Assembly (NCBI GenBank): GCA_963706795.1
Contig: OY970170.1
Coordinates: forward strand, 1-32,000
Direction: 5' to 3'
From: Candidatus Saccharimonadota bacterium
GTDB taxonomy: Bacteria; Patescibacteriota; Gracilibacteria; BD1-5; UBA2023
Length of the DNA stretch: 32,000 bases
This document shows, one piece after another, positions 3,107-15,434 of the stretch. Each line of letters opens with the position of its first letter. Positions within the stretch are counted from its first letter, which is position 1. Position numbers and translations under genes: made by a program. The notes below the pieces were generated by a model. It was not told the DNA's origin, ran no database searches, and worked only from the letters and a program-made list of their open reading frames with translations.

Positions 3107-3143
3107 TTCACCATGCCCAATAAACGCATGGTTCCTCAACAAA

Positions 3144-3169
3144 AAAAGACCCTTCGTGGGTCTTTTTTA
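3144..3169. terminator. Bidirectional rho-independent terminator, exact copy of 2505..2530
   Basis: Same 26-mer AAAAAGACCCTTCGTGGGTCTTTTTT with A-run and T-run on both sides. The TAA stop (3167-3169) of the convergent minus-strand gene sits in its 3' edge. Confidence 0.75.
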
Positions 3170-4102
3170 AGCGAAGATGATCGCGGCATACCAGTCTCGG
3201 CGGGCGAGCTCTCAGTTGTAATTGCGGAGTGCAGTAAATGTACGGGCGCTTTCTGGGAAGTATTTCATCTCATAATTGAGGCCTTCAGTGAGGTCTTTTT
3301 TAGTGAGTTCTGGAGCGGAGAATACTTTGCGAGCGTCATTGATCGTAGGGATAAATCCCTTGAGATTGGTGACGATATCAAAGGTTTGTTTGCAGATTTG
3401 TTCTTCTGGGATTTCTTCTGCGGAGCTATAGAGTGCGGCATAATAGACAAGACCAAGGGTTGTATTCGCGTACGAATTGGTCACATTTCGACGAAGGACT
3501 TCGAGCGCCTTCATATATTGATCGATGCGAATATTGTCAGCCCTAAGTGTATGAATAGCGGTCTTTACATCGCTCTGTGGAATCGAGTGAATCGCACGGA
3601 GTGGAAGTTTTTGGAAGAATTTTGCATAGCGCGCAAAGCCGCGATTGTCCGTGATACGCATCATCATGTCATCAAACACCGAAGACGTAAGCTGAAAATC
3701 TCATCGTGCACCCGTCTCAGATTTGAGAATCTTGCCACCATGCGACTCATGGAACCAGAGTCTTGAGGCGATTACAGGCGAGATATCAAACCCTTTGGCA
3801 AGTGTGTGAACATAGGTTTTGATGCTCGGATCAAACGTCAGACTCATTTGGCCTGCATCGATTTTATAGAGTTCCTTGTTGTAGGTTTTGAGGCGCTCTT
3901 TTCGGTAATCATTCGCAAATTTACGTTCGCGTTCACGGAGATTATTACGGATCCAAACAACATCTGAAGCACGGGCCTGGACGCTCGATATAATTCCAGT
4001 AATTGCCAGGGCTCCAGAGGCCACTAAAAAATGTCTCTTAGAATGAGACTCTAGCTGGGTTTCCTGGGATTCGAGGGTTGGTGAAAAACGAGAAAAAGTC
4101 AT
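3167..4102 (-). CDS. Secreted or membrane-anchored lytic transglycosylase (SLT domain)
   Basis: Track ORFs 3701..4102 and 3212..3679 are in the same frame and joined by TGA 3701-3703. The join reads WFHESHGGKILKSETGAR-G-DFQLT, which is the SLT catalytic E-S and GAxGxxQ motif with TGA at the conserved Gly. A second TGA at 3212-3214 adds 14 codons before TAA 3167-3169. N-terminal hydrophobic anchor HFLVASGALAITGIISSVQA. Confidence 0.8.
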
Positions 4103-4545: not shown

Positions 4546-5539
4546 ACGTATTCTCACGGGATTGAAGCGGAAGTTTTCTAATCGGAAATTTCGCAAAAAT
4601 GCCGAAAAAGAACGCTCCCAAAAATTCCTCTTCGAGAATACAAAAAAACCTCGAGCGAGCTTTTTTGAGATGTATCAAAAAGCTCGACGCGGTGCATATT
4701 TTAGACCCTTCTATTCAGCATTCGAAAAAAACGCAAATGAGTTCCGCGTAGCCTTTAGTGTGATTGGGGTGCTTCTCATTTTTTTGACGGTATATATTAC
4801 GCTCCTCTCGCCATATTTTAGGATTTCTCCGAATAGAGTCATCATCGAACCAGCACAAGGAGATGATTTTTCGGATATCAATATTGCCTATAAAGCGATC
4901 GAAGATATCTATGGGAAATCTCTTTGGTTCACGACTACGAGCGAAATCACCAATGCGATACAATCGCTCGAAAAAAACATCGGCAAAGTCGATGTTCAGC
5001 GCCTCTATCCAAATGGGCTCAAGATTGTTATCGAATCCTATCCACCCGTATTTACCGTACATTTTAGAGGTCTTGATCGGAAATTTTTACTCTCACAAAA
5101 TGGGATTCTCATACCGGTTCATATAAAGCGTGATGATCTTCCTCCGATGAATATTTATTCGACTGATCTCATCGAATCAGCCTTTTTGGACTACAAAGAA
5201 GCGATCTCCGCGCTTCGCATGAAACGCATCATTGGTCTCACGAATGCGTTCAAGGAGCAGTTCCCAAAAGTGACTATTACTTCGCTCTCATATTACAAGA
5301 CCGAGAACGAGATTCATTTTTTCCTCGAAAATGGGACTCGTATCATCTTCCTCCTCGACGATACGCTCGATAAGGAGTTACAGGCACTCAAGATAACTGA
5401 ATGAAACACACCAGGACTCCTGACTGGATGAGAATTCTTTTATATCGACACACGCATCATCGGTAAAATCTTTACGTGCAAGGACAAAAATCTCTGCACC
5501 AAAAATCTTGAGAAAATCTATGGAAACGCCATTAATTAG
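4523..5539 (+). CDS. ftsQ: Cell division protein FtsQ/DivIB-like (TM plus POTRA); start uncertain (4505, 4523 or 4670)
   Basis: TM segment FSVIGVLLIFLTVYITLL, then a POTRA-like region (ISPNRVIIEPAQ...VDVQRLYPNGLKIVIESYPPVF). TGAs at 5402 and 5429 are read through to give ...YIDTRIIGKIFTC... Stop TAG 5537-5539. Confidence 0.7.
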
Positions 5540-5969
5540 CATTCCGTTCCCCATAAAAGATATTTGGCATGTCATCTACTTTGAAAAAGAGCTGATATTG
5601 GCAGGCATTATTGTAGCTGGTGCACTCATATATTACTGCTATCAGGTCTGGTCGCGTTTTGAGAGTATTGAAGAGATGCATTCTCCTAGGCCAAAAACTA
5701 ACTGGTCAGCACTCTATCGCACCCTCAATCCCAAATCGCCCGATTTTGCGAAGCGCATAGAATCTCTCCTCATCGAATTCGCCGAGCAAGAATTCGCCAT
5801 CACCCTGCGAGACTCGCTTACTGCAGAAGAAAAATCCAGGCTCGTCGCTTCTCCCGAAATCTCTCGTTGCCTGAAACTCGCTCGCGATATTCGGTATTCA
5901 AAATCAGGAGATCAGTCAGCTAAAATCCAAGAACTCGATACTCTCGCATCACGTATTTTTGCACCGTAA
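5520..5969 (+). CDS. Small single-TM protein at the head of the Bat-like operon (architecture resembles DUF4381-type components)
   Basis: One TM (LILAGIIVAGALIYYCYQVW) plus a soluble tail. Its TAA overlaps the next gene's ATG (TAATG at 5967-5971). Confidence 0.5.
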   Translation: METPLISIPFPIKDIWHVIYFEKELILAGIIVAGALIYYCYQVWSRFESIEEMHSPRPKTNWSALYRTLNPKSPDFAKRIESLLIEFAEQEFAITLRDSLTAEEKSRLVASPEISRCLKLARDIRYSKSGDQSAKIQELDTLASRIFAP

Positions 5970-6988
5970 TGCATTTTGTTTTTTTCGCTCCTGAATTCCT
6001 CGTATTGGGCTTTGTTGCTCTTTTTTGGATTGGGTGAATCCTCTGAGAGAAGCGTTTCGCGATCTATTTCCGAAGTGGTACGCAGACAGATGCTTGAGCT
6101 TCAAAAAATAGAATATTTCGAGCAGCCCTCTGAGCAATGAGTATCATTTTACTCTCGATTGGGATGGCCGATCCACGGATCACCGAGACGCACAAAGATA
6201 CTTCAAAAAATGGGATCGATATTGCAATCGTGCTCGATATCTCAAAGAGCATGCTCGCAGAAGACATCTCACCAAGTCGCATCACAGCAGCAAAAAAGGC
6301 GATCATACGATTCATCGAGGCACGTCCAAATGATCGTATTTCGCTCACAATTTTTGCGGGGAAACCTTTTTTGTTATCACCACTCACCTTTGATAGCACG
6401 GTGCTTGTGCAGATCGTAGGGAGTATCGGAGTGGATTCGATCAAACAGGAAATCCCTGGTTTTTCGGGAACTGCTATCGGCGATGGTCTGCTTCTTGGCT
6501 ATCAAAGCCTCGAAAGCGAGCCCACACGCGAAAAAATCATCGTCCTTCTTACTGATGGCGAAGCCAATCTTGGCATCGATCCCAAGGCGAGTGCGCTCTA
6601 TGCCAAAGAAAAAAACGTCAGCATCTACACCATTGGCCTCTGAAATCCCAAAGGCACTGAGCTCTACACAACTGAGATAAACGGCGACAAAAAATATTTT
6701 GTCGATGGACAAAAGAATCCCATCATCGCCACCATCGATGAGAAACTTCTAACATATATAGCCGAAAGTACTGGTGGAAGTTATGCCAATGCTACGAGTT
6801 CAAACGCACTCTCGAGTATTTTTGAGAAGCTTTCAAAACTGAGACTTCGTCCGATTGTGGATAATTCGGTGATTACAGAAAATACCCCACTGAGCCCCTA
6901 TAGTTTTGGACTCGCGATTTTGTGCATGCTCGTGCTTCTCTTGCTTGAGAGGAAGCGACTAGATTCTTGACTGGGATCCGCATGGTAA
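5969..6988 (+). CDS. BatA-like membrane-anchored von Willebrand factor A (VWA) protein
   Basis: N-terminal TM region recovered only by reading TGAs at 6035, 6044, 6095 and 6131 as sense. VWA MIDAS motif DIAIVLDISKSM, LLTDGEAN, C-terminal TM. Further TGAs at 6641 and 6968. Stop TAA 6986-6988. Confidence 0.85.
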
Positions 6989-7917
6989 TATCAATCTTTA
7001 TCGCTCTTGTGGTGGGAGTCATCGGACTCTACTTGCTTTTTTTGAAGCCAAAACCTGCGATCGCCAATGAGAGCAAGAACTATAGAGTGATACAGCTCCT
7101 CTTTATACTCAAAAGACTACTGATATTAACAGGGGTGATCTGACTCTCCGCTATCTCAAGCTGGCTCATCATCACAGGAAGTGCTTTTTCGATCGCACAA
7201 GGCTCCAAAATGATCATTCTGGTCGATGTTTCCAAGAGCATGCTTACTGTAGATATCGTATCTGGCGGGACAAAAATCTCACGGCTCGATGTTGCAAAAT
7301 CAAAAGCGATCGAGATGATACGGACATTTGCATGACATCCGATTTCGATCATCGCATTTGCCTGAGAAAGTCGCACTATTACGCCATTTACTACTGACAG
7401 TGAATCAAATATCAATGCAGTGACGACCCTCTTGCCTGAGAGCGTCTCTGTTGGCTGATCTGAGATAGTGACTACACTCGTAGACGCTCTGGCAATATTT
7501 GAGCCGTCTGAAGCTGGTTCGGTCATACTCATGAGCGACGGCGATGATCGTAGTATCGACACGAGTCCACTCGAATCCCTCATCCGTACCCATCAAAAAG
7601 TACATATTTATCCAATCGGAATCGGAGGTGATACTCCATCTCCTCTCGTGCTTGGCAAAGATATCATCGGTAATCTCCGATATAAACAAGTCGATTGAAA
7701 AATCCTCCAAACCAAACTCGAGGATGATAATCTCAAAACACTCGCAAGCATGACTGATGGGAAATATTTCCACTATCTCGACACCGCGTCACTCTCGTCT
7801 GATCAAGCCTCCAGTCCCGAAAAATCCTATTCATGATTGGCTATTGCCTTGAATTTAATGGCAATCCTCATTATGCTCGGACTCATACTCCCCTATCGAT
7901 ACCGATGAAAAAAGTAG
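6982..7917 (+). CDS. BatB-like membrane-anchored VWA protein
   Basis: ATG overlaps the BatA-like stop (ATGGTAA). MIILVDVSKSM MIDAS motif, IIAFA-G-ES with TGA 7363-7365 at the conserved Gly, LMSDGDD, C-terminal TM. Seven in-frame TGAs. Stop TAG 7915-7917. Confidence 0.85.
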
Positions 7918-8810
7918 CTTTTGCGATCTTGATTATGCTCCTTGTGACTCTCTTTTGAGTGCGTACTTGGGGGATTTCGATGATCCAAAATGAGATGCTT
8001 GTAGCTGCATCAAAACAATCCTGGATCGATAATGCTGACAGATTCCTTATCGCACATAGTCTCTACCTCAGATGAAGCGGAAGTATCGCCCGAGATCTCT
8101 GGCAACAAACGATTGATCCTACAAAAAAATCGGAGAATAACCTGTATGCACTTCATAATATCGGCAATACGTATGTCGATGAAGCGCAATCTCAAAAACA
8201 GATCAACACCCAGATTTCCCTGCTTTTAGATGCAAAAACTGCATACGAATCTGCTCTCAAAAATGGATCAGACGCCGAAACTGAGTCCAATCTTGAAGCT
8301 GTCATCAAAATCCTTGAGAAGCTCCAGGCCAAGCAAGAAGAACAAAAAAAAGAATCCGCGCAGGATTCAAATTCGGATGCAAATATACCGTCATGAACAA
8401 CTGGAAGTGGCGCAACTTCCTTAACTGGATCAACGGATTCACAAGATCAAGGCAATAAAACCTCTAGTGGAAGCAATGATGCAGCTGCAAGCTCGAGTGG
8501 CTCACAGAGTGCTACAGGATCGGCAAGTATTCCAAAAAACAATGGATCCCTCTTCACTAATCAAGGCAAGACAGAATCCACTGGCAGAGACTTTGGATCA
8601 GGCACATGAGAATCCCTCAATCCCGACGAAAAAAACAAGATCGAGAGTATTCTCAGAGATATAGACCAGCTCCAAAAACAACGCAGCGATTACACGCGAC
8701 CTGATGGTACTAAAGCTCCAACTACCGGCGGACTCTTCGAGCAATTTCTCAAATCTGATCCCCTGTTTGAGGATCTACAAAATGGTGGAAGTGGGAAGCG
8801 AGATTGGTAA
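7905..8810 (+). CDS. BatC-like TPR-containing protein with a Ser/Gly/Thr-rich linker
   Basis: ATG 7905 overlaps the upstream gene by 13 nt. Signal/TM MKKVAFAILIMLLVTLF; TPR-like NLYALHNIGNTYVDEAQ...AKTAYESALKNGSDAETESNLEAV. Four in-frame TGAs. Stop TAA 8808-8810. Missing from the track because the frame lacks internal start codons between TGAs. Confidence 0.6.
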
Positions 8811-8821
8811 AGACTTCGTTT

Positions 8822-8855
8822 AATTACTTTTTATTGAACTTAAAAGTAATTTTCT
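8822..8855 (+). terminator. AT-rich hairpin terminator after the Bat-like operon
   Basis: AATTACTTTT (8822-8831) pairs with AAAAGTAATT (8842-8851), a 10-bp stem followed by a T-run. It overlaps the last codons of the convergent gene. Confidence 0.45.
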
Positions 8856-9699
8856 CGGTATCTGAAGGTATTGGAAAGTATTCGTTCGCCTGTGGGTGAT
8901 CTTTATACCAAAGATTCCGAGACTCCGTAATATCTCTCTCTACTCAATCTAATGACGTAATAATTACAGCACTAGTAAGACATGTTCATTGTGATAGACA
9001 TCGATCAAGTTCGTTATTCACAAAAAGTATTCCACTTCCAGTTCAAAGATGACTCACATAATTCGAGACAATCTTAACATTTTTTGCACGAATCTTTCAG
9101 TGTCTTGGGATAAAAATCTGTGTACCCACTGGATATTGAACACGGTATGTTACTTCGCTCGACACTTCAGGAATAAAGTCTTTGATGTATCTATCCGTCT
9201 GAGTAGCACAGTAAATTGATGGATGAGCTTCATCTCATGAAGACATCTTAAACGTATTTATAGAGAATTTTTCATATTTTCTCTGGATAAATCAACCCTG
9301 CAGTATTTTTTTGATTCAAAAAATTCTGTCATCTTGTGAGTGTGTTATATCTGGAATATAGACACTATTCTGAGTCGCTTTCGCATCTTTTCTTTGTCCT
9401 ATGCACAGATATTCAAATTGCGTCGATTCCTGGATAGCACCACTTCAAGATATACCTGGAAGATTTACAATTCACCCACTGCCCTGATACGATGAATAGT
9501 ATGCATCCCACGAAATTTCGTTGAGTCACATCATTGTTTGCCCTGTCTGTAGAACCTTGTTGAACGGATTAGCATCTGCATTTAAGAGAATAGGCAGACT
9601 TAGTTCGTATTTTGAAGTAGCAAATGTGCATTGTGTTATTCAAATAAAAAGCACGAACACTAGAATATTTAAGGAGGTACGAATAGGGCTTATCATCAT
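8824..9699 (-). CDS. Hypothetical secreted protein, 291 aa, 11 in-frame TGA codons (absent from the supplied ORF track)
   Basis: On the minus strand, the frame with codon starts equal to 1 mod 3 has no TAA or TAG between 8827 and 9741. ATG-ATG at 9694-9699. N-terminal signal-like MMISPIRTSLNILVFVLFIGITQC. Stop TAA (plus-strand TTA 8824-8826). TGAs fall in Gly-plausible contexts (SGGIV, ISGSG, HLGTGSG). Confidence 0.65.
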
Positions 9700-9866
9700 A
9701 GTTTCAGTGGATAAGATTATTAAAAGCAGTATAAATATATATTAAAAATACTTGAAAAGTAAACAAAAAAACGTATGTTACGCTGGCATTATTGATATGC
9801 TGCGTACATTGGGTAACTCAGCATACAAATGCAATTCATTAACATTCTTTTGGAAGGATTTAAGTC

Positions 9867-10517
9867 ATGCTGACTTTAAAAAGAGCAGTAGCAAGTTTTG
9901 CAACAACCATTCTGGCCGCTACAGTATTTATGAGTAGCGCGTTAGCATATACCGATCTGCCTGTTAACGCTGCAAAATTTCAACTTTTTAGCGGTGGCTC
10001 ACCGGTTGACAATTTCTTTGCACCTGATAATGGTCAATTTGATAAGCTCATTCTCAAGGTGCAAGATAGCAATTCGTACCAGTTACAGAACAATCCAAAC
10101 TGGGTAAATGCCAATATGCCCGTCCCGATTTCAGTAGGTGGACGTGCAAGAGTTGGCAACGGTCAGTGTGTTGATTTTGTAAAGCACATGACCGGTAATT
10201 TTGCCTCATCAAGTAACTGGCTCAAAGGCGACCACGTCAGTGAATATTGGGATCCGAATGCACTTGTTGGCAAAGTGATTGCAACATTCAATTCAAGTGG
10301 CAATTACGACAATAGTCATGTTGCTATCGTTATAAGCGCATGGAAACGAAGCGGCAGTAATACTGTAACAGATGTCTGGGTAGTGGATGCAAATTTTGTG
10401 CCTGATCACGGCTTAACAGTATCGAAGCATGCACTTAGCACTACCGGAAGCGGTTATGTCGGTAATCTTAAGAACTACTATATCGTGAAAATGAACTGAC
10501 ATTTCCAAAAGTTGTAA
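9867..10517 (+). CDS. Secreted papain-fold (CHAP/NlpC-P60-like) cysteine peptidase candidate
   Basis: Signal peptide MLTLKRAVASFATTILAATVFMSSALA. Candidate nucleophile GNGQCVDFVKH and downstream NSHVAIVIS His. SD-like GGAAGGA about 9 nt upstream. No internal TGA. TGA at 10497 is followed by 5 codons and TAA 10515-10517. Confidence 0.65.
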
Positions 10518-10526
10518 ATGAACTAT

Positions 10527-10559
10527 AAAAATCCTCGTCTTTGTGACGGGGATTTTTTT
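10527..10559. terminator. Bidirectional rho-independent terminator
   Basis: AAAAATCCTCGTC-TTTGT-GACGGGGATTTTTTT lies between convergent genes (one G-U pair in the stem). Confidence 0.7.
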
Positions 10560-10560
10560 A

Positions 10561-11271
10561 TTATCTACTCATCACCAAAGTCCCCACTACCCCGCTATCC
10601 CCGAGTCGGTCAATATCCTCGATCTTACATACAAAGAGCGGGAGTCGCTCTTCTTTGGCAAGTGCGATGGCGCTCTGATCCATGATTCGTAGATTTTTCT
10701 CGAGCGCTTCTTGATGAGTAACCTGATCATACCGCTTCGCTTCAGGGAATTTTGCAGGATCCATATCATAGACTCCATCCACTTTTGTACCCTTGACCAT
10801 AACTTCACAATTGAGTTCGAGCGCCCTGAGAACGGCAGCGGAATCAGTTGTGAAATATGGATTTCCAGTTCCAGCTACGGCGATAACCACTCTTCCCTTT
10901 TCAAGATGCTTCATAGCACGACGTCTGATGAAGAGTTCAGAAACACGTGGGATTTCGACCGCGCTCATAATGCGAACCTCTTGACCTTGTTTTTCGATAG
11001 CATCGCCGAGCGCGATACCATTCATGACGGTGGCGAGCATTCCCATATAGTCAGCACTCGAACGATCGATTCCCTCTGCTGCACCAGATACTCATCGGAA
11101 AATATTGCCACCTCCGATGACGATCACGACTTCTTTTTTGGCAATCTTTACGAGGTACACGATTTTAGAAGCGAGTGTATGAAGAAAATCCACGTCGATT
11201 CCGTGGTCATTTTTTCATTGAAGTGCTTCACCTGAGAGCTTAAGGAGGTATCGTTTACTCTTGCTGATCAT
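10561..11271 (-). CDS. pyrH: UMP kinase
   Basis: MISKSKRYLLKLSGEALQ-G-KNDHGID...[36 protein letters not shown]... TGAs at 11215-11217 and 11092-11094 fall on the conserved Gly of GEALxG and GGGNIFRG. Stop TAA 10561-10563. Confidence 0.93.
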
Positions 11272-11282
11272 AAAAAATGTAT

Positions 11283-11308
11283 AAAAAAAGCTCCCAACGA
11301 GGAGAGCT
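11283..11308 (-). terminator. Probable rho-independent terminator (minus strand)
   Basis: Minus strand reads AGCTCTCC-TCGT-TGGGAGCT followed by T7. It overlaps the TAG stop of the 11307..11882 gene. Confidence 0.5.
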
Positions 11309-11882
11309 AAAAAATAAAAAACGACAGAGTGGCCGAAACCGTTATCAAAAGAAGCACGAGTACGATAAGTACGTAAAGCGTGAGCTTTGATTTTTCGGAG
11401 TCGATTTTGAGTTGGGTAATCTCTGATTCAAATTGTTTCTTTTCTTCTTCTGTCTTGGATTTTGCAGACTCGAGAAGGAAGGTCGCTTTTTTGTACTCAA
11501 TCATCGAAATCGAATTTTTGAGCTCAGACTCAGCATGTCCAGCGCGGTACGACAAATCCTGGATCACACGATCCTTCTCGCCAATTCGCTTCATTGCGTC
11601 TTCGTACAGATCCCGATAGTCCACCATCACCGGCTTACGTCTAAATCCTGTCTCAGTAGGCATCTCATCAAAAAATACAATATCCTCTGTCTTTACGCTG
11701 TCCGTTGCCCGAATAAGCTCTGGCTCAGAACCCTGGAGCACAACAATATCCTCATCATGAATGAAGATCTTTTTCCCCTTACGCTTCGTACGAAGCTTTC
11801 CCGACTTAACATATCGATCAAGCGTACGAGTGGAAATCTCAAGAATGTCTGCAGCTTCTTCGCGTGAATGAGTATAGGACAC
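11307..11882 (-). CDS. Membrane-tethered helix-turn-helix protein (N-terminal excisionase/MerR-type HTH, coiled coil, C-terminal TM anchor)
   Basis: EEAADILEISTRTLDRYVKSGKL HTH. A charged, heptad-like middle region. C-terminal LTLYVLIVLVLLLITVSATLSFFIF. Stop TAG. Confidence 0.7.
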   Translation of the reverse strand: MSYTHSREEAADILEISTRTLDRYVKSGKLRTKRKGKKIFIHDEDIVVLQGSEPELIRATDSVKTEDIVFFDEMPTETGFRRKPVMVDYRDLYEDAMKRIGEKDRVIQDLSYRAGHAESELKNSISMIEYKKATFLLESAKSKTEEEKKQFESEITQLKIDSEKSKLTLYVLIVLVLLLITVSATLSFFIF

Positions 11883-12080
11883 TGGCTCTGGTTTTATTGG
11901 GGATTATTATAGGGAAAATGAGCGAAAGGCAATGGAAAACTCGGAACCTACTGCTTATGTTTAGCTCTTACCTCTCATATAAAATCTTCAAAATTTTGAG
12001 AATACGGGATATCTCTCACATATTCGAAGAGAGTAATTCTTTTAAATACCTCTTCTTGAGACATAGGACGTTATCAAAAG

Positions 12081-12416
12081 TTAATCCGCTAAAAGTATTT
12101 GCTCTAGAGTAACCTTCAGTGCTGGCAAATCCTTCTCGATCGTTTCCCAAACTTCCTCGATATCTATCCCAATATAGTCATGAGCGATAAAATTTCGAAA
12201 ACCAATCATGTCACGATATGGTAACTGCTCGTCGTCTGGAAAGTATGTCTTGCACTTGTTTGCAGTTTCTCATAAATGCTGGAATTGCATGAGACATGCA
12301 TCTTTCACGAGATTATTCTGTGCGAAAGTTCGTGCATTGAGACCCGCACTATAGAGAGAAATAGCTCTTATAGCCTCAAACATCCAGAGAAAGTATATTT
12401 TTTTGTCCTTTTTCAT
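12081..12416 (-). CDS. hepT: HEPN-domain (DUF86) toxin of an MNT-HEPN toxin-antitoxin pair
   Basis: R-x4-H motif FRNFIAHDY. QHL-G-ETA with TGA 12270-12272 at the conserved (I/L)GE glycine. 111 aa. Stop TAA 12081-12083. Starts 5 nt after the MNT stop. Confidence 0.8.
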
Positions 12417-12421
12417 AGAAA

Positions 12422-12727
12422 CTAAAAAACAAACACTTTATCCTCGAGGATATTTTCACGAATCTCTGGGCGAATAGCCTTTTCAGAGATGAGATCAATA
12501 TTTCTACCAAGCTTCTCCTCGAGTGAGACTTTAAGGTTTCAGATATTGAAGAGTGTTATCGAACTATTTTCTTGCTTCTGGTAGATAAGATCGATGTCAC
12601 TTGCTGCAGTTTGCTCATTGCGTGAAAAAGACCCCGTCAGATAGACATGCTGTACATGATTCCGACGAAAAATATCTCGTACTTCTGACGAGCGGAGTGC
12701 TTCGAGTATATTGATCTGTTCTGTCAT
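12422..12727 (-). CDS. mntA: Minimal nucleotidyltransferase (MNT) antitoxin
   Basis: LTGSFSRNEQTAASDIDLIY (the G-S-x-x-R...D-x-D pol-beta NTase motif). TGA 12539-12541 read-through adds ...NLKVSLEEKLGRNIDLISEKAIRPEIRENILEDKVFVF. Stop TAG 12422-12424. Confidence 0.85.
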
Positions 12728-12763
12728 GCAGTTATTGTAATAAAATCTGCTTCAGTGCAAAAC

Positions 12764-12787
12764 AAATCCCCGTTCTCACGGGGATTT
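12764..12787 (-). terminator. Hairpin terminator downstream of gyrB
   Basis: AAATCCCCG-TTCTCA-CGGGGATTT starts 4 nt after the gyrB stop. The T-tract on the minus strand is imperfect. Confidence 0.55.
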
Positions 12788-12790
12788 TCA

Positions 12791-15434
<2,644 letters not shown>

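What the first reader, a model, noticed from the sequence alone, without database searches (positions are those of the whole stretch)
8824..9699. A 291-codon gene hidden from the ORF track by 11 in-frame UGA codons
The supplied track shows about 1 kb (8811-9866) with essentially no ORFs. On the minus strand one frame has no TAA or TAG from 8827 to 9741. It starts with ATG-ATG, encodes a signal-like N-terminus (MMISPIRTSLNILVFVLFIGITQC) and ends at TAA. TGAs occur about once per 26 codons, the highest density in the window. I recognised no motif in the protein. The region is visibly more AT-rich than the flanking Bat-like and pyrH genes. It is divergently paired with a secreted CHAP-like peptidase. 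It may be a lineage-specific secreted factor.
Basis: seen in the sequence. Interest (0 to 1): 0.7.

Follow-up and report, generated by a model that had tools for sequence, protein, structure and literature searches.

The report
UGA-rich secreted-protein gene beside wall amidase
This is a real gene, invisible under the standard genetic code because the host bacterium reads UGA as glycine; it encodes an exported protein of an undescribed small family that repeatedly sits head-to-head with a secreted cell-wall-cutting enzyme, and it may be that enzyme's partner or self-protection factor.

Summary
The minus strand of 8824-9699 holds ATG-ATG, 291 sense codons and TAA, with exactly 11 in-frame TGA. 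The frame is free of TAA/TAG over 305 codons (8827-9741); none of 2000 dinucleotide shuffles reached 291.

The genome uses code 25. TGA falls on invariant Gly of PyrH, RsgA, QueA and ApbE. Within this gene, codon 136 (TGA) aligns with a Gly kept in all five full-length homologues.

The gene is real. HMMER over 1.84 billion representatives found seven distant homologues (26-33% identity; E 4e-24 and 1e-20 for the two of full length). Every locus where the code could be judged is UGA-recoded. Members share a Sec signal peptide, four conserved Cys and the motifs TYR[IV]QYPVGT, SNY and IPxDTA. Pfam, NCBIfam and PDB give no match, and the AlphaFold model is poor.

In four independent loci the gene is divergently paired, across a 152-167 nt spacer, with a Sec-exported papain-like amidase of the Tae2/BPSL0067 family. 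Here the pair is an insertion between pyrH and a BatD-like gene.

The most likely role is an extracytoplasmic partner of that amidase, and I favour self-protection. This role is inferred, not shown.

The high TGA load is the extreme of a genome-wide trend: TGA is more frequent in genes with poorly adapted codon usage.

The parts
8824..9699 (-). Coding sequence of the exported protein: 291 sense codons (11 of them UGA=Gly) plus TAA at 8824-8826
   Evidence: Homologues.
9619..9699 (-). Signal peptide, codons 1-27 (MMISPIRTSLNILVFVLFIGITQCTFA, then TSKYEL); cleavage predicted after TFA
   Evidence: Hydrophobic core with Kyte-Doolittle 3.09 at residue 12. The -3/-1 rule was applied by inspection. 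Homologues have the equivalent ...FA|S/Q/H-Y-[ED] junction. SignalP was not available.
9580..9609 (-). Conserved start of the mature protein, YELSLPILLN (family pattern Y[ED]hxhPhhhD)
9292..9294 (-). TGA codon 136, aligned with a Gly present in all five other full-length family members
   Evidence: column 171; one search lists G136 as invariant.
8944..8946 (-). TGA codon 252, aligned with Gly in 4 of the 5 other full-length members
   Evidence: column 294
9121..9150 (-). Family signature TYRVQYPVGT (Y185, R186, Q188, Y189 and P190 invariant)
8980..9006 (-). DRCLSQGTC: the second pair of conserved cysteines (C234, C240). The first pair is C99 (9403-9405) and C164 (9208-9210).
   Evidence: Disulfide bonds are inferred, not shown.
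8827..8880 (-). Conserved C-terminal motif YFPIPSDTEKITFKFNKK (family pattern EYFxIPxDTAxLxFxFxKK)
9700..9866 (.). Divergent 167-nt spacer shared with the amidase gene. It holds a conserved CTTGA + A-run (9751-9772) and an SD-like GGAAGGA (9852-9858) before the amidase ATG.
   Evidence: The spacer is 152-167 nt in all four paired loci; alignment. The count of promoter-like hexamer pairs is not above chance.
9867..10517 (+). Partner gene: Sec-exported papain-like cysteine amidase, Tae2/BPSL0067 family (CHAP-like), 216 aa with 1 TGA
   Evidence: Pfam CHAP E 8.4e-4, below the cut-off. NCBIfam NF033857 31 bits against a cut-off of 27. PDB 6WIN Tae2 E 3.5e-6 with Cys and His aligned. C101, H151, D174, N176 and H188 are invariant. 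AlphaFold pLDDT 82.7.
10527..10557 (+). Terminator-like hairpin between the convergent amidase and pyrH genes; right edge of the inserted pair
7902..8810 (+). BatD-like gene flanking the insertion on the left. In relatives L003, L004 and L006 it directly abuts pyrH.
10561..11271 (-). pyrH (UMP kinase) flanking the insertion on the right. Its two TGA codons at invariant Gly positions establish code 25.

Best explanation
The region 8824-9699 (-) is an intact protein-coding gene of a bacterium that reads UGA as glycine (code 25; a Gracilibacteria/Absconditabacteria-type member of the Patescibacteria). It encodes a roughly 264-residue mature protein that is exported by Sec, appears mainly beta-stranded, and probably carries two disulfide bonds. 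It belongs to a small, previously undescribed family.

The gene forms a conserved head-to-head two-gene cassette with a Sec-exported papain-like peptidoglycan amidase of the Tae2/BPSL0067 (CHAP-like) family. In this genome the cassette is inserted in a variable slot between pyrH and a BatD-like gene.

The most likely role is that the protein works outside the cytoplasm together with that amidase. My preferred version (about 0.35) is that it binds and blocks the amidase at the producer's own wall, as a self-protection or immunity protein, while free enzyme attacks the wall of a host or competitor.

Shown: the gene, the code, the family, the export signal, the conserved pairing and the insertion. 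Inferred: the disulfides, any physical interaction, and the protective role.

The 11 UGA codons need no special mechanism. UGA is the Gly codon favoured in this genome's AT-rich genes with poorly adapted codon usage, and this gene is the extreme case.
For: Code 25: TGA lies at invariant Gly of PyrH, RsgA, QueA and ApbE.

Coding:
- The open frame is 305 codons; none of 2000 shuffles reached 291.
- It is the best of six frames by codon log-odds: -0.04 against -0.26 to -0.42, or +0.02 against -0.18 to -0.31 with stops and TGA left out.

Homology:
- phmmer against 1.84 billion representatives gave P0002 (293 aa, E 4e-24), P0003 (309 aa, E 1e-20) and five more.
- The alignments run end to end, with invariant residues in the YRxQYP and SN motifs, shared signal peptides and four conserved Cys.

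UGA=Gly inside the family:
- Candidate codon 136 aligns with Gly in 5 of 5 homologues, and codon 252 with Gly in 4 of 5.
- Conversely, L083, L084 and L082 have TGA where the candidate has GGN.

Conserved pairing:
- A family gene lies divergent to an amidase homologue in the window, L082, L088 and L094.
- Spacers are 167, 161, 152 and 165 nt and share conserved elements.
- This holds although the family proteins are only 29-38% identical.

Partner identity: NCBIfam BPSL0067 family above its cut-off; PDB Tae2 6WIN at E 3.5e-6 with the catalytic Cys and His aligned (Cys23/His73 in 10.1101/2020.04.10.036376); signal peptide ending ALA|Y.

Insertion: in L003, L004 and L006 pyrH abuts the BatD-like gene, while L002 and L005 carry other genes in that slot.

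Precedent for the proposed role: Tae amidases are neutralised by adjacently encoded exported Tai proteins (PMC6277958), and Bdellovibrio protects itself from its own secreted endopeptidases with Bd3460 (PMC4686830).

Also compatible with immunity genes: family genes without an amidase and a tandem partial paralogue (L083, L084, L086, L096); much faster divergence than the enzyme (about 30% against 41-58% identity); and a different exported 282-aa protein next to the amidase on code-11 plasmid-like contigs.

TGA trend: the TGA share of Gly codons falls as the codon-usage score rises across 21 genes (Spearman -0.55, p 0.009).
Against: - No direct evidence of expression or of any interaction.
- The two genes are divergent, not co-transcribed, whereas Tae-Tai pairs generally share an operon (PMC6277958).
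- The mature protein (about 264 aa) seems, from memory, larger than typical Tai proteins.
- Half of the family loci examined lack a nearby amidase.
- There is no sequence or fold similarity to any known immunity protein or any other family.
- The AlphaFold model has mean pLDDT 44.7, so the fold is unknown.
- Pairwise identities of the two families across the four paired loci do not correlate (r 0.02 from 6 comparisons), so co-inheritance is not demonstrated.
- On the plasmid-like contigs the amidase sits beside a relaxase and a coupling protein. This also fits a wall-remodelling enzyme for DNA transfer rather than a toxin.
- The codon-usage score is below every confident gene in the window.
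- The fold search with the amidase model was not significant.
Confidence: 0.6

Rival explanations
1. A real secreted protein that works independently of the amidase, for example a surface or host-interaction factor of an episymbiotic or predatory cell. On this view the adjacency only reflects two accessory exported-protein genes travelling together in variable genome islands.
For: Four of eight family loci have no amidase within the sequence available. Neighbours differ widely: UvrC/DnaK in L083, ribosomal genes in L086, DsbA and a T2SSE ATPase in L096. The genes are transcribed divergently. Pairwise identities of the two families do not correlate.
Against: The same head-to-head arrangement, with a spacer of 152-167 nt and shared spacer elements, recurs in four loci whose family proteins are only 29-38% identical and whose surroundings are unrelated. 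Such order is unlikely to persist without selection. Four of the five amidase contexts with enough flank carry a family gene.
Confidence: 0.25
2. An accessory factor that helps the amidase rather than restraining it. It might be a targeting or wall-binding subunit or an activator for attack on host peptidoglycan, or a component that opens the wall for pili or DNA transfer.
For: The pairing is conserved. The amidase has no recognisable cell-wall-binding domain of its own, only an N-terminal extension of about 70 residues. On plasmid-like contigs the amidase lies next to a relaxase and a coupling protein. A pilus-type ATPase or a pilin gene lies near family genes in L096 and L086.
Against: No carbohydrate- or peptidoglycan-binding domain was detected. 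The plasmid-borne amidase lacks this family altogether. Family genes occur without the enzyme.
Confidence: 0.13
3. The region is non-coding or a decaying pseudogene, and the long TAA/TAG-free frame is fortuitous.
For: It has the lowest codon-usage score (-0.04) and the lowest GC3 (0.30) of all ORFs treated as genes. No SD-like motif lies upstream. No known domain matches.
Against: None of 2000 shuffles gave so long a frame. Full-length homologues exist at E 4e-24 and 1e-20 with the motifs, the cysteines and the signal peptide all retained. There is no frameshift or TAA/TAG. The proposed frame clearly beats the other five.
Confidence: 0.02
4. UGA here is read as tryptophan (code 4), as selenocysteine, or by occasional read-through, not as glycine.
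For: One public gene call of this very sequence (P0001) translated it with Trp at the 11 sites.
Against: TGA coincides with invariant Gly in PyrH, RsgA, QueA and ApbE and with Gly columns of this family. P0005 reads QYPVWT where the family has QYPVGT. TGG is used separately for Trp (61 in the training genes, 2 in this gene). Eleven sites in one gene is not how selenocysteine is used.
Confidence: 0.01

Closest known systems
Genes of UGA=Gly (translation table 25) bacteria: Gracilibacteria (BD1-5) and Absconditabacteria (SR1)
   Same: In-frame TGA at conserved Gly positions; only TAA/TAG terminate; genes fragment or vanish under table 11. The closest PyrH and GyrB relatives are MAGs labelled Gracilibacteria, Peribacteria or Patescibacteria. 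The recoding itself is established knowledge (papers listed, e.g. PMC8629427 and PMC8080830).
   Different: Nothing differs in kind. This gene has an unusually high UGA load: 52% of its Gly codons, against 0-30% in other window genes.
Tae2-Tai2 and the other type VI amidase effector / immunity pairs
   Same: The partner enzyme scores above the NCBIfam cut-off for the BPSL0067 family and matches the Salmonella Typhi Tae2 structure 6WIN with the catalytic Cys and His aligned. An exported protein is encoded next to the amidase, as Tai proteins are (PMC6277958).
   Different: The amidase carries a Sec signal peptide and an extra N-terminal region of about 70 residues instead of being a T6SS substrate. 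The genes are divergent rather than in one operon. The candidate has no detectable similarity to any described family. It also seems larger than typical Tai proteins (from memory). No inhibition has been shown.
Bd3460, the ankyrin-repeat self-protection protein of Bdellovibrio against its secreted DD-endopeptidases Bd3459 and Bd0816 (PMC4686830)
   Same: The concept is the same: a predator or episymbiont secretes a wall-cutting enzyme and needs an exported inhibitor encoded beside it. The Vampirococcus paper (PMC8080830) raises the same idea for an Absconditabacteria predator.
   Different: Bd3460 has an ankyrin fold, whereas the candidate appears mainly beta-stranded and has no ankyrin match. 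The enzyme class also differs (PBP4-type endopeptidase against papain-like amidase). A predatory lifestyle is not established for this organism.
CHAP-domain peptidoglycan hydrolases (Pfam PF05257), including phage endolysins and conjugation-associated hydrolases
   Same: The partner has the Cys-His papain-like core. Four of six members give sub-threshold CHAP hits. A homologue lies beside a relaxase and a coupling protein on plasmid-like contigs.
   Different: Scores stay below the Pfam gathering threshold (20.2 against 26 bits). Fold searches were not significant. This entry concerns the neighbouring gene, not the candidate itself.

Membership tests
Gene read under translation table 25 (UGA=Gly) | In-frame TGA coincides with conserved Gly in well-known proteins of the same genome | tested here: met
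   PyrH LSGEALQ-x-K and GGGNIFR-x, RsgA DTP-x-I, QueA VI-x-VGTT and HV-x-IGTF, ApbE DFG-x-D
Gene read under translation table 25 (UGA=Gly) | In-frame TGA of this gene coincides with Gly in its own homologues | tested here: met
   Codon 136 aligns with Gly in 5 of 5 and codon 252 with Gly in 4 of 5. Reciprocal cases occur in L082, L083 and L084. The other TGA codons lie in variable columns.
Gene read under translation table 25 (UGA=Gly) | tRNA-Gly with anticodon UCA present and release factor 2 absent | not testable with these tools
   No tRNA gene lies in the 32-kb window, and the rest of the genome is not available.
Sec (signal peptidase I) exported protein | Basic n-region, hydrophobic h-region of 10-15 residues, and small residues at -3 and -1 | tested here: met
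   R7; L10-I22 (Kyte-Doolittle maximum 3.09); T-F-A then T (and inspection). All full-length homologues have an equivalent leader ending just before Y[ED]hxhP. No dedicated predictor was run.
T6SS amidase immunity proteins (Tai1-4) | Encoded next to a Tae-family amidase gene | tested here: met
   Adjacent to a Tae2/BPSL0067-family gene in 4 loci
T6SS amidase immunity proteins (Tai1-4) | Same operon as the effector (PMC6277958) | tested here: not met
   The genes are divergently transcribed in all four paired loci.
T6SS amidase immunity proteins (Tai1-4) | Sequence or fold similarity to a described Tai family | tested here: not met
   No Pfam, NCBIfam or PDB-sequence hit, even at permissive E-values. 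The fold search used a low-confidence model and is uninformative.
T6SS amidase immunity proteins (Tai1-4) | Binds and inhibits the cognate amidase | not testable with these tools
   This needs a complex prediction or biochemistry.
Tae2 / BPSL0067 family (partner gene 9867-10517) | Score above the curated family cut-off | tested here: met
   NF033857: 31 bits against a cut-off of 27. A plasmid homologue is annotated as a BPSL0067 family protein.
Tae2 / BPSL0067 family (partner gene 9867-10517) | Catalytic Cys and His of the papain-like core conserved and aligned with Tae2 Cys23/His73 | tested here: met
   C101 and H151 are invariant in six homologues and aligned to 6WIN (residue numbers from 10.1101/2020.04.10.036376).
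Tae2 / BPSL0067 family (partner gene 9867-10517) | Delivered by a type VI secretion system | tested here: not met
   The protein has a Sec signal peptide (MLTLKRAV...SSALA, then YTD). No T6SS gene was recognised among the window genes examined; the whole genome was not examined.
Tae2 / BPSL0067 family (partner gene 9867-10517) | Structural match to Tae2/CHAP folds | tested here: inconclusive
   The model has pLDDT 82.7, but Foldseek found nothing at E <= 0.001. The weak hits include papain-like peptidases and phage CHAP/TIGR02594 proteins.
Pfam CHAP domain PF05257 (partner gene) | Score at or above the gathering threshold | tested here: not met
   20.2 bits against 26; 4 of 6 homologues give sub-threshold hits.

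The most novel reading that the evidence does not exclude
Code-25 episymbiotic or predatory bacteria, which have no known T6SS, export a Tae2-type peptidoglycan amidase through Sec as a weapon or host-entry tool. This new protein family would then be its cognate extracellular self-protection (immunity) factor, making this the first toxin-immunity-like wall-amidase module described for this lineage. A further twist: the nearly UGA-free amidase gene also occurs on standard-code plasmids, while the UGA-containing partner family was found only in recoded genomes, so the genetic code itself may confine the protective gene.
Probability: 0.3. Interest if true: 0.65.

Novelty: new variant of a known kind. 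Interest (0 to 1): 0.4.

Why it matters
This is a clean worked example of how table-11 gene calling erases genes of UGA=Gly bacteria. In the public protein collections searched, the only call found for this gene was a table-4 call that puts Trp at 11 Gly positions, and the neighbouring amidase was recorded truncated at its UGA.

It also defines a small, previously undescribed exported-protein family confined to recoded Patescibacteria, and links it by conserved gene order to a Sec-exported Tae2-family wall amidase. These organisms are thought to live on or prey upon other bacteria. A secreted wall-cutting enzyme with a dedicated partner is therefore a concrete, testable candidate for the host-attack or self-protection machinery, which is still poorly known in this lineage.

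The link between UGA load and codon usage also shows how the reassigned codon is distributed among genes.

Tried and rejected
- Word-indexed search of 5.8 billion proteins with the single sequence and with the family profile. It returned only the same locus (P0001, whose contig L001 is 100% identical in DNA to window 5324-13001) plus P0007.
- Searches for the candidate in GTDB species genomes, JGI metagenome contigs and IMG/VR viral contigs found no relatives. The pattern/tblastn route uses the standard code and missed members that HMMER found.
- Pfam, NCBIfam and PDB-sequence searches with the sequence or the profile were negative. The one PHROG hit (phrog_35267, E 7.7e-4, unknown function, 50 residues) was judged too weak.
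The Foldseek matches are therefore meaningless.
- Foldseek with the confident amidase model gave no significant PDB or viral match.
- The 282-aa protein upstream of the plasmid-borne amidase was tested as a hidden family member and rejected (hmmsearch score -1).
- The 192-aa ORF divergent to the L086 family gene was tested as a hidden amidase and rejected; its sequence looks spurious.
- The co-phylogeny test of the two families was uninformative (r 0.02, six comparisons at saturating divergence).
- dN/dS was not attempted. The only near relative is identical and the others are about 30% identical.
- The opposite-strand ORF 9049-9552 (+) was rejected as coding (score -0.31).
- No mobile-element genes or scars flank the inserted pair, so 'mobile element' was not adopted.
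- A search of PLSDB plasmids with the candidate found nothing.
Full report
**1. The observation**

The minus strand of 8824-9699 reads ATG-ATG, then 289 further sense codons, then TAA. It contains exactly 11 in-frame TGA, at codons 20, 58, 76, 85, 128, 136, 155, 201, 219, 238 and 252.

In 2000 dinucleotide-preserving shuffles of 8811-9866 the longest such frame averaged 107 codons (maximum 223), and none reached 291.

Under the standard code no ORF of 80 aa or more lies between 7773 and 9867. GC is 36% here against 42-45% on either side.

The TGA density, 37.8 per 1000 codons, is the highest of any credible gene in the window; the next are 24.2 and 21.6. Some spurious antisense ORFs have more.

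**2. The genetic code**

With TGA marked in the translations of the window's recognisable genes, it falls on residues that are Gly in these families everywhere:
- PyrH: LSGEALQ-x-K and GGGNIFR-x
- RsgA G3 motif: DTP-x
- QueA: HV-x-IGTF and VI-x-VGTT
- ApbE: DFG-x-D
- a VWA protein: FA-x

TGG is used separately for Trp. The closest PyrH and GyrB relatives (63-78% identity) are MAGs labelled Gracilibacteria, Peribacteria or Patescibacteria group. The window therefore comes from a UGA=Gly (table 25) bacterium, and the recoding itself is already known. No tRNA gene lies in the window, so tRNA-Gly(UCA) could not be checked.

**3. Is it a gene?**

A codon log-odds model was trained on about 20 homology-supported window genes.
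- The proposed frame scores -0.04 per codon, against -0.26 to -0.42 for the other five frames.
- With stop codons and TGA excluded the figures are +0.02 against -0.18 to -0.31.
- Every confident gene scores +0.13 to +0.41.
- Base composition differs among the three codon positions (chi-square p 0.0036).

So there is a coding signal, but a weak one. Homology is what settles it.

The word-indexed search of 5.8 billion proteins returned only P0001. This is the same sequence translated with Trp at the 11 sites, and its 7.7-kb contig L001 is 100% identical to window 5324-13001. It is the same organism and not independent evidence.

An exhaustive phmmer search of 1.84 billion cluster representatives then found seven distant relatives:
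- P0002: 293 aa, E 4e-24
- P0003: 309 aa, E 1e-20
- P0004 to P0008: E 5e-10 to 1e-6

Re-reading their contigs under table 25 gave full-length members in L082, L083, L084/85, L086/87, L088, L094 and L096/97.

The alignment runs end to end. Shared features are:
- a signal peptide that ends just before a conserved Y[ED]hxhPhhhD
- four conserved cysteines (C99, C164, C234, C240)
- the motifs TYR[IV]QYPVGT, SNY and EYFxIPxDTAxLxFxFxKK at the C-terminus

The candidate has no frameshift and no TAA/TAG, and it keeps all of these features. It is an intact gene, not a pseudogene.

**4. UGA=Gly inside the family**

- Candidate codon 136 (TGA) sits in a column where all five other full-length members have Gly.
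- Codon 252 aligns with Gly in four of five.
- Conversely, L083 and L084 have TGA where the candidate has GGN (QTGQT), and L082 has TGA in the GSG column.
- P0005, a table-4 translation, reads QYPVWT where the family has QYPVGT.
- The candidate's remaining TGA codons lie in variable columns.

All family loci whose code could be judged are recoded. L082 and L086 use only TAA/TAG as stops and carry 43 and 64 in-frame TGA. L083, L084 and L088 have in-frame TGA in the family gene itself. L096/97 are shattered into small ORFs by standard-code gene calling.

**5. Why so many UGA?**

Eleven of the gene's 21 Gly codons are TGA, against 56 of 554 in the other genes (binomial P 1.5e-6). This is the end of a gradient, not an isolated oddity.

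Across 21 window genes the TGA share of Gly codons falls as the codon-usage score rises (Spearman -0.55, p 0.009, candidate excluded):

| Gene | TGA / Gly codons |
|---|---|
| GyrB | 0/56 |
| ABC-F ATPase | 1/51 |
| RsgA | 8/27 |
| second VWA gene | 7/24 |
| candidate | 11/21 |

The candidate has the lowest codon score and the lowest GC3 (0.30). Under table 25 the change GGA to TGA is synonymous and AT-enriching. An AT-rich, fast-evolving gene with poorly adapted codons would therefore be expected to accumulate it. This is an inference. In three of the four paired loci the family gene is also AT-richer than its partner, so the low GC looks like a property of the family rather than a mark of recent transfer.

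**6. Genomic setting**

The block gyrB - HTH gene - pyrH - BatD-like gene - VWA genes ... ftsQ is conserved in relatives.
- In L003, L004 and L006 pyrH directly abuts the BatD-like gene.
- In L002 and L005 other membrane-protein genes occupy that slot.
- In the window the slot holds the candidate and a divergent 216-aa gene.

The pair (about 8811-10560) is therefore an insertion in a variable position. No integrase, repeats or other mobile-element marks were seen. A terminator-like hairpin (10527-10557) separates the 216-aa gene from pyrH.

**7. The neighbour**

The 216-aa protein has a typical Sec leader (…SSALA, then YTD).
- Pfam gives only a sub-threshold CHAP hit (E 8.4e-4, 20.2 bits against a 26-bit cut-off).
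- It passes the curated NCBIfam cut-off for NF033857, the BPSL0067 family (31 against 27 bits).
- A profile of six homologues hits one solved structure, 6WIN, at E 3.5e-6. 6WIN is Salmonella Typhi type VI amidase effector 2 (Tae2), a papain-like peptidoglycan amidase with catalytic Cys23 and His73 (10.1101/2020.04.10.036376; PMC10318531).
- The invariant C101 and H151 of the window protein align with those two residues.
- Its AlphaFold model is confident (pLDDT 82.7). Foldseek nevertheless found nothing significant; the weak hits include papain-like peptidases and phage CHAP/TIGR02594 proteins.

I treat it as a Sec-exported member of the Tae2/BPSL0067 family, CHAP-like in the wide sense. Fold confirmation is still outstanding.

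**8. A conserved pair**

A family gene lies head-to-head with an amidase homologue in four independent loci: the window, L082, L088 and L094. The spacers are 167, 161, 152 and 165 nt. They share a CTTGA + A-run and an SD-like motif before the amidase ATG.

Across these loci the amidases are 41-58% identical, while the family proteins are only 29-38% identical. The surrounding genes are unrelated: MarR, Phd and Fic genes in L082, DsbA in L088.

Of the five amidase contexts with enough flanking sequence, four carry the family gene. The fifth is a group of standard-code plasmid-like contigs, L089-L093. They carry Rep3, relaxase, coupling protein, ParA and resolvase genes, use TGA as a stop in 5 of 13 genes, and have no in-frame TGA. 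There the amidase (49% identical) follows an unrelated exported 282-aa protein.

Conversely, four family loci (L083, L084/85, L086/87, L096/97) show no amidase within the sequence available. L084 also has a second, partial paralogue downstream.

**9. Likely function**

Shown: two exported proteins, one of them a wall amidase, kept side by side with a shared regulatory spacer in divergent genomes.

Inferred: they act together outside the cytoplasm.

The best precedents are the Tae-Tai effector-immunity pairs, in which an exported protein encoded beside the amidase neutralises it (PMC6277958), and Bd3460, which protects Bdellovibrio from its own secreted endopeptidases (PMC4686830). The Vampirococcus study raises the same idea for an Absconditabacteria predator with secreted wall hydrolases (PMC8080830).

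Features that fit an immunity-like role:
- export to the compartment where the enzyme acts
- much faster divergence than the enzyme
- 'orphan' and tandem copies of the family gene
- replacement by a different exported protein on the plasmid version

Features that do not fit:
- divergent rather than operonic arrangement
- large size
- no similarity to any known immunity protein
- half of the family loci without an amidase
- no evidence of binding

I therefore give self-protection about 0.35, an accessory or targeting role about 0.13, and an unrelated secreted function about 0.25. That the region is a real exported-protein gene I rate above 0.95.

**10. Structure and family searches that failed**

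Pfam, NCBIfam and PDB-sequence searches with the sequence or the profile found nothing. AlphaFold2 with the eight-sequence alignment gave mean pLDDT 44.7; the model is mostly beta-stranded and only the last 70 or so residues exceed 60. The fold search on it was therefore uninformative. The Gly-corrected sequence could not be submitted to the remote tools, so P0001 or P0002 stood in for it.

**11. Verdict**

A gene hidden by UGA is an expected consequence of table 25 and is not new in itself.

What is new is modest but real: an undescribed exported-protein family found only in recoded Patescibacteria, and its conserved pairing with a Sec-exported Tae2-family amidase. It is a new variant of a known kind, and its interest is moderate (0.4).

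Noticed in passing
window 12081-12760 (-): An MNT (NTP_transf_2) plus HepT toxin-antitoxin pair lies between gyrB and the HTH_17 gene. In relatives L002 and L005 gyrB directly abuts the HTH gene, so this is a second small insertion in the same conserved block.
   Followed up: partly
window 5969-6988 and 6982-7917 (+): The two VWA-domain (BatA/BatB-like) genes are separate, slightly overlapping genes here. In L002, L004 and L006 they form one fused ORF of 614-622 aa.
   Followed up: partly
window 9751-9772 and 9852-9858; L082 9840-10000, L088 847-998, L094 1561-1725: The divergent spacer is 152-167 nt in all four paired loci. It keeps a CTTGA + A-run and an SD-like GGAAGGA before the amidase start, whereas the family gene has no SD-like motif. 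This may be a shared promoter or operator.
   Followed up: partly
L089-L093 (e.g. L089 8001-8621): Standard-code plasmid-like contigs (Rep3, NikA-like, relaxase, coupling protein, ParA, resolvase, PIN/Phd) carry an amidase 49% identical to the window's, preceded by an unrelated exported 282-aa protein. The amidase family thus crosses the genetic-code boundary, while the candidate family was not seen outside recoded genomes.
   Followed up: partly
L088 1762-2385; L096/L097 4777-5532: DsbA/thioredoxin-type genes lie next to the amidase or the family gene in two unrelated loci. This fits with the four conserved cysteines of the family.
   Followed up: no
whole window (21 genes): The TGA share of Gly codons falls as the codon-usage score rises (Spearman -0.55, p 0.009). 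It is 0/56 in gyrB and 1/51 in the ABC-F ATPase gene, but 8/27 in rsgA and 7/24 in a VWA gene.
   Followed up: yes
L084 about 4811-5158 (+), also L085 1828-2175: A second, partial paralogue of the family (matching residues 186-291) lies about 600 nt downstream of the full-length member.
   Followed up: no
window 3113-4027 (+) against 3167-4102 (-): Two long overlapping TAA/TAG-free ORFs lie here. Only the minus-strand one has a coding signal (+0.27 against -0.05). Neither was identified.
   Followed up: no
window 9867-10517 and public protein records: In the NCBI/ENA-derived record (a 1.27-Mb contig) the amidase appears as a 210-aa product cut at its single UGA, and no product for the candidate was found in that source. 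The only call of the candidate is a table-4 translation with 11 Trp.
   Followed up: partly
L099 (NC_019972.1, Methanomethylovorans hollandica plasmid pMETHO01) 2683-3336: A BPSL0067-family protein 37% identical to the amidase core is annotated on an archaeal megaplasmid, with hypothetical genes divergent upstream of it.
   Followed up: no
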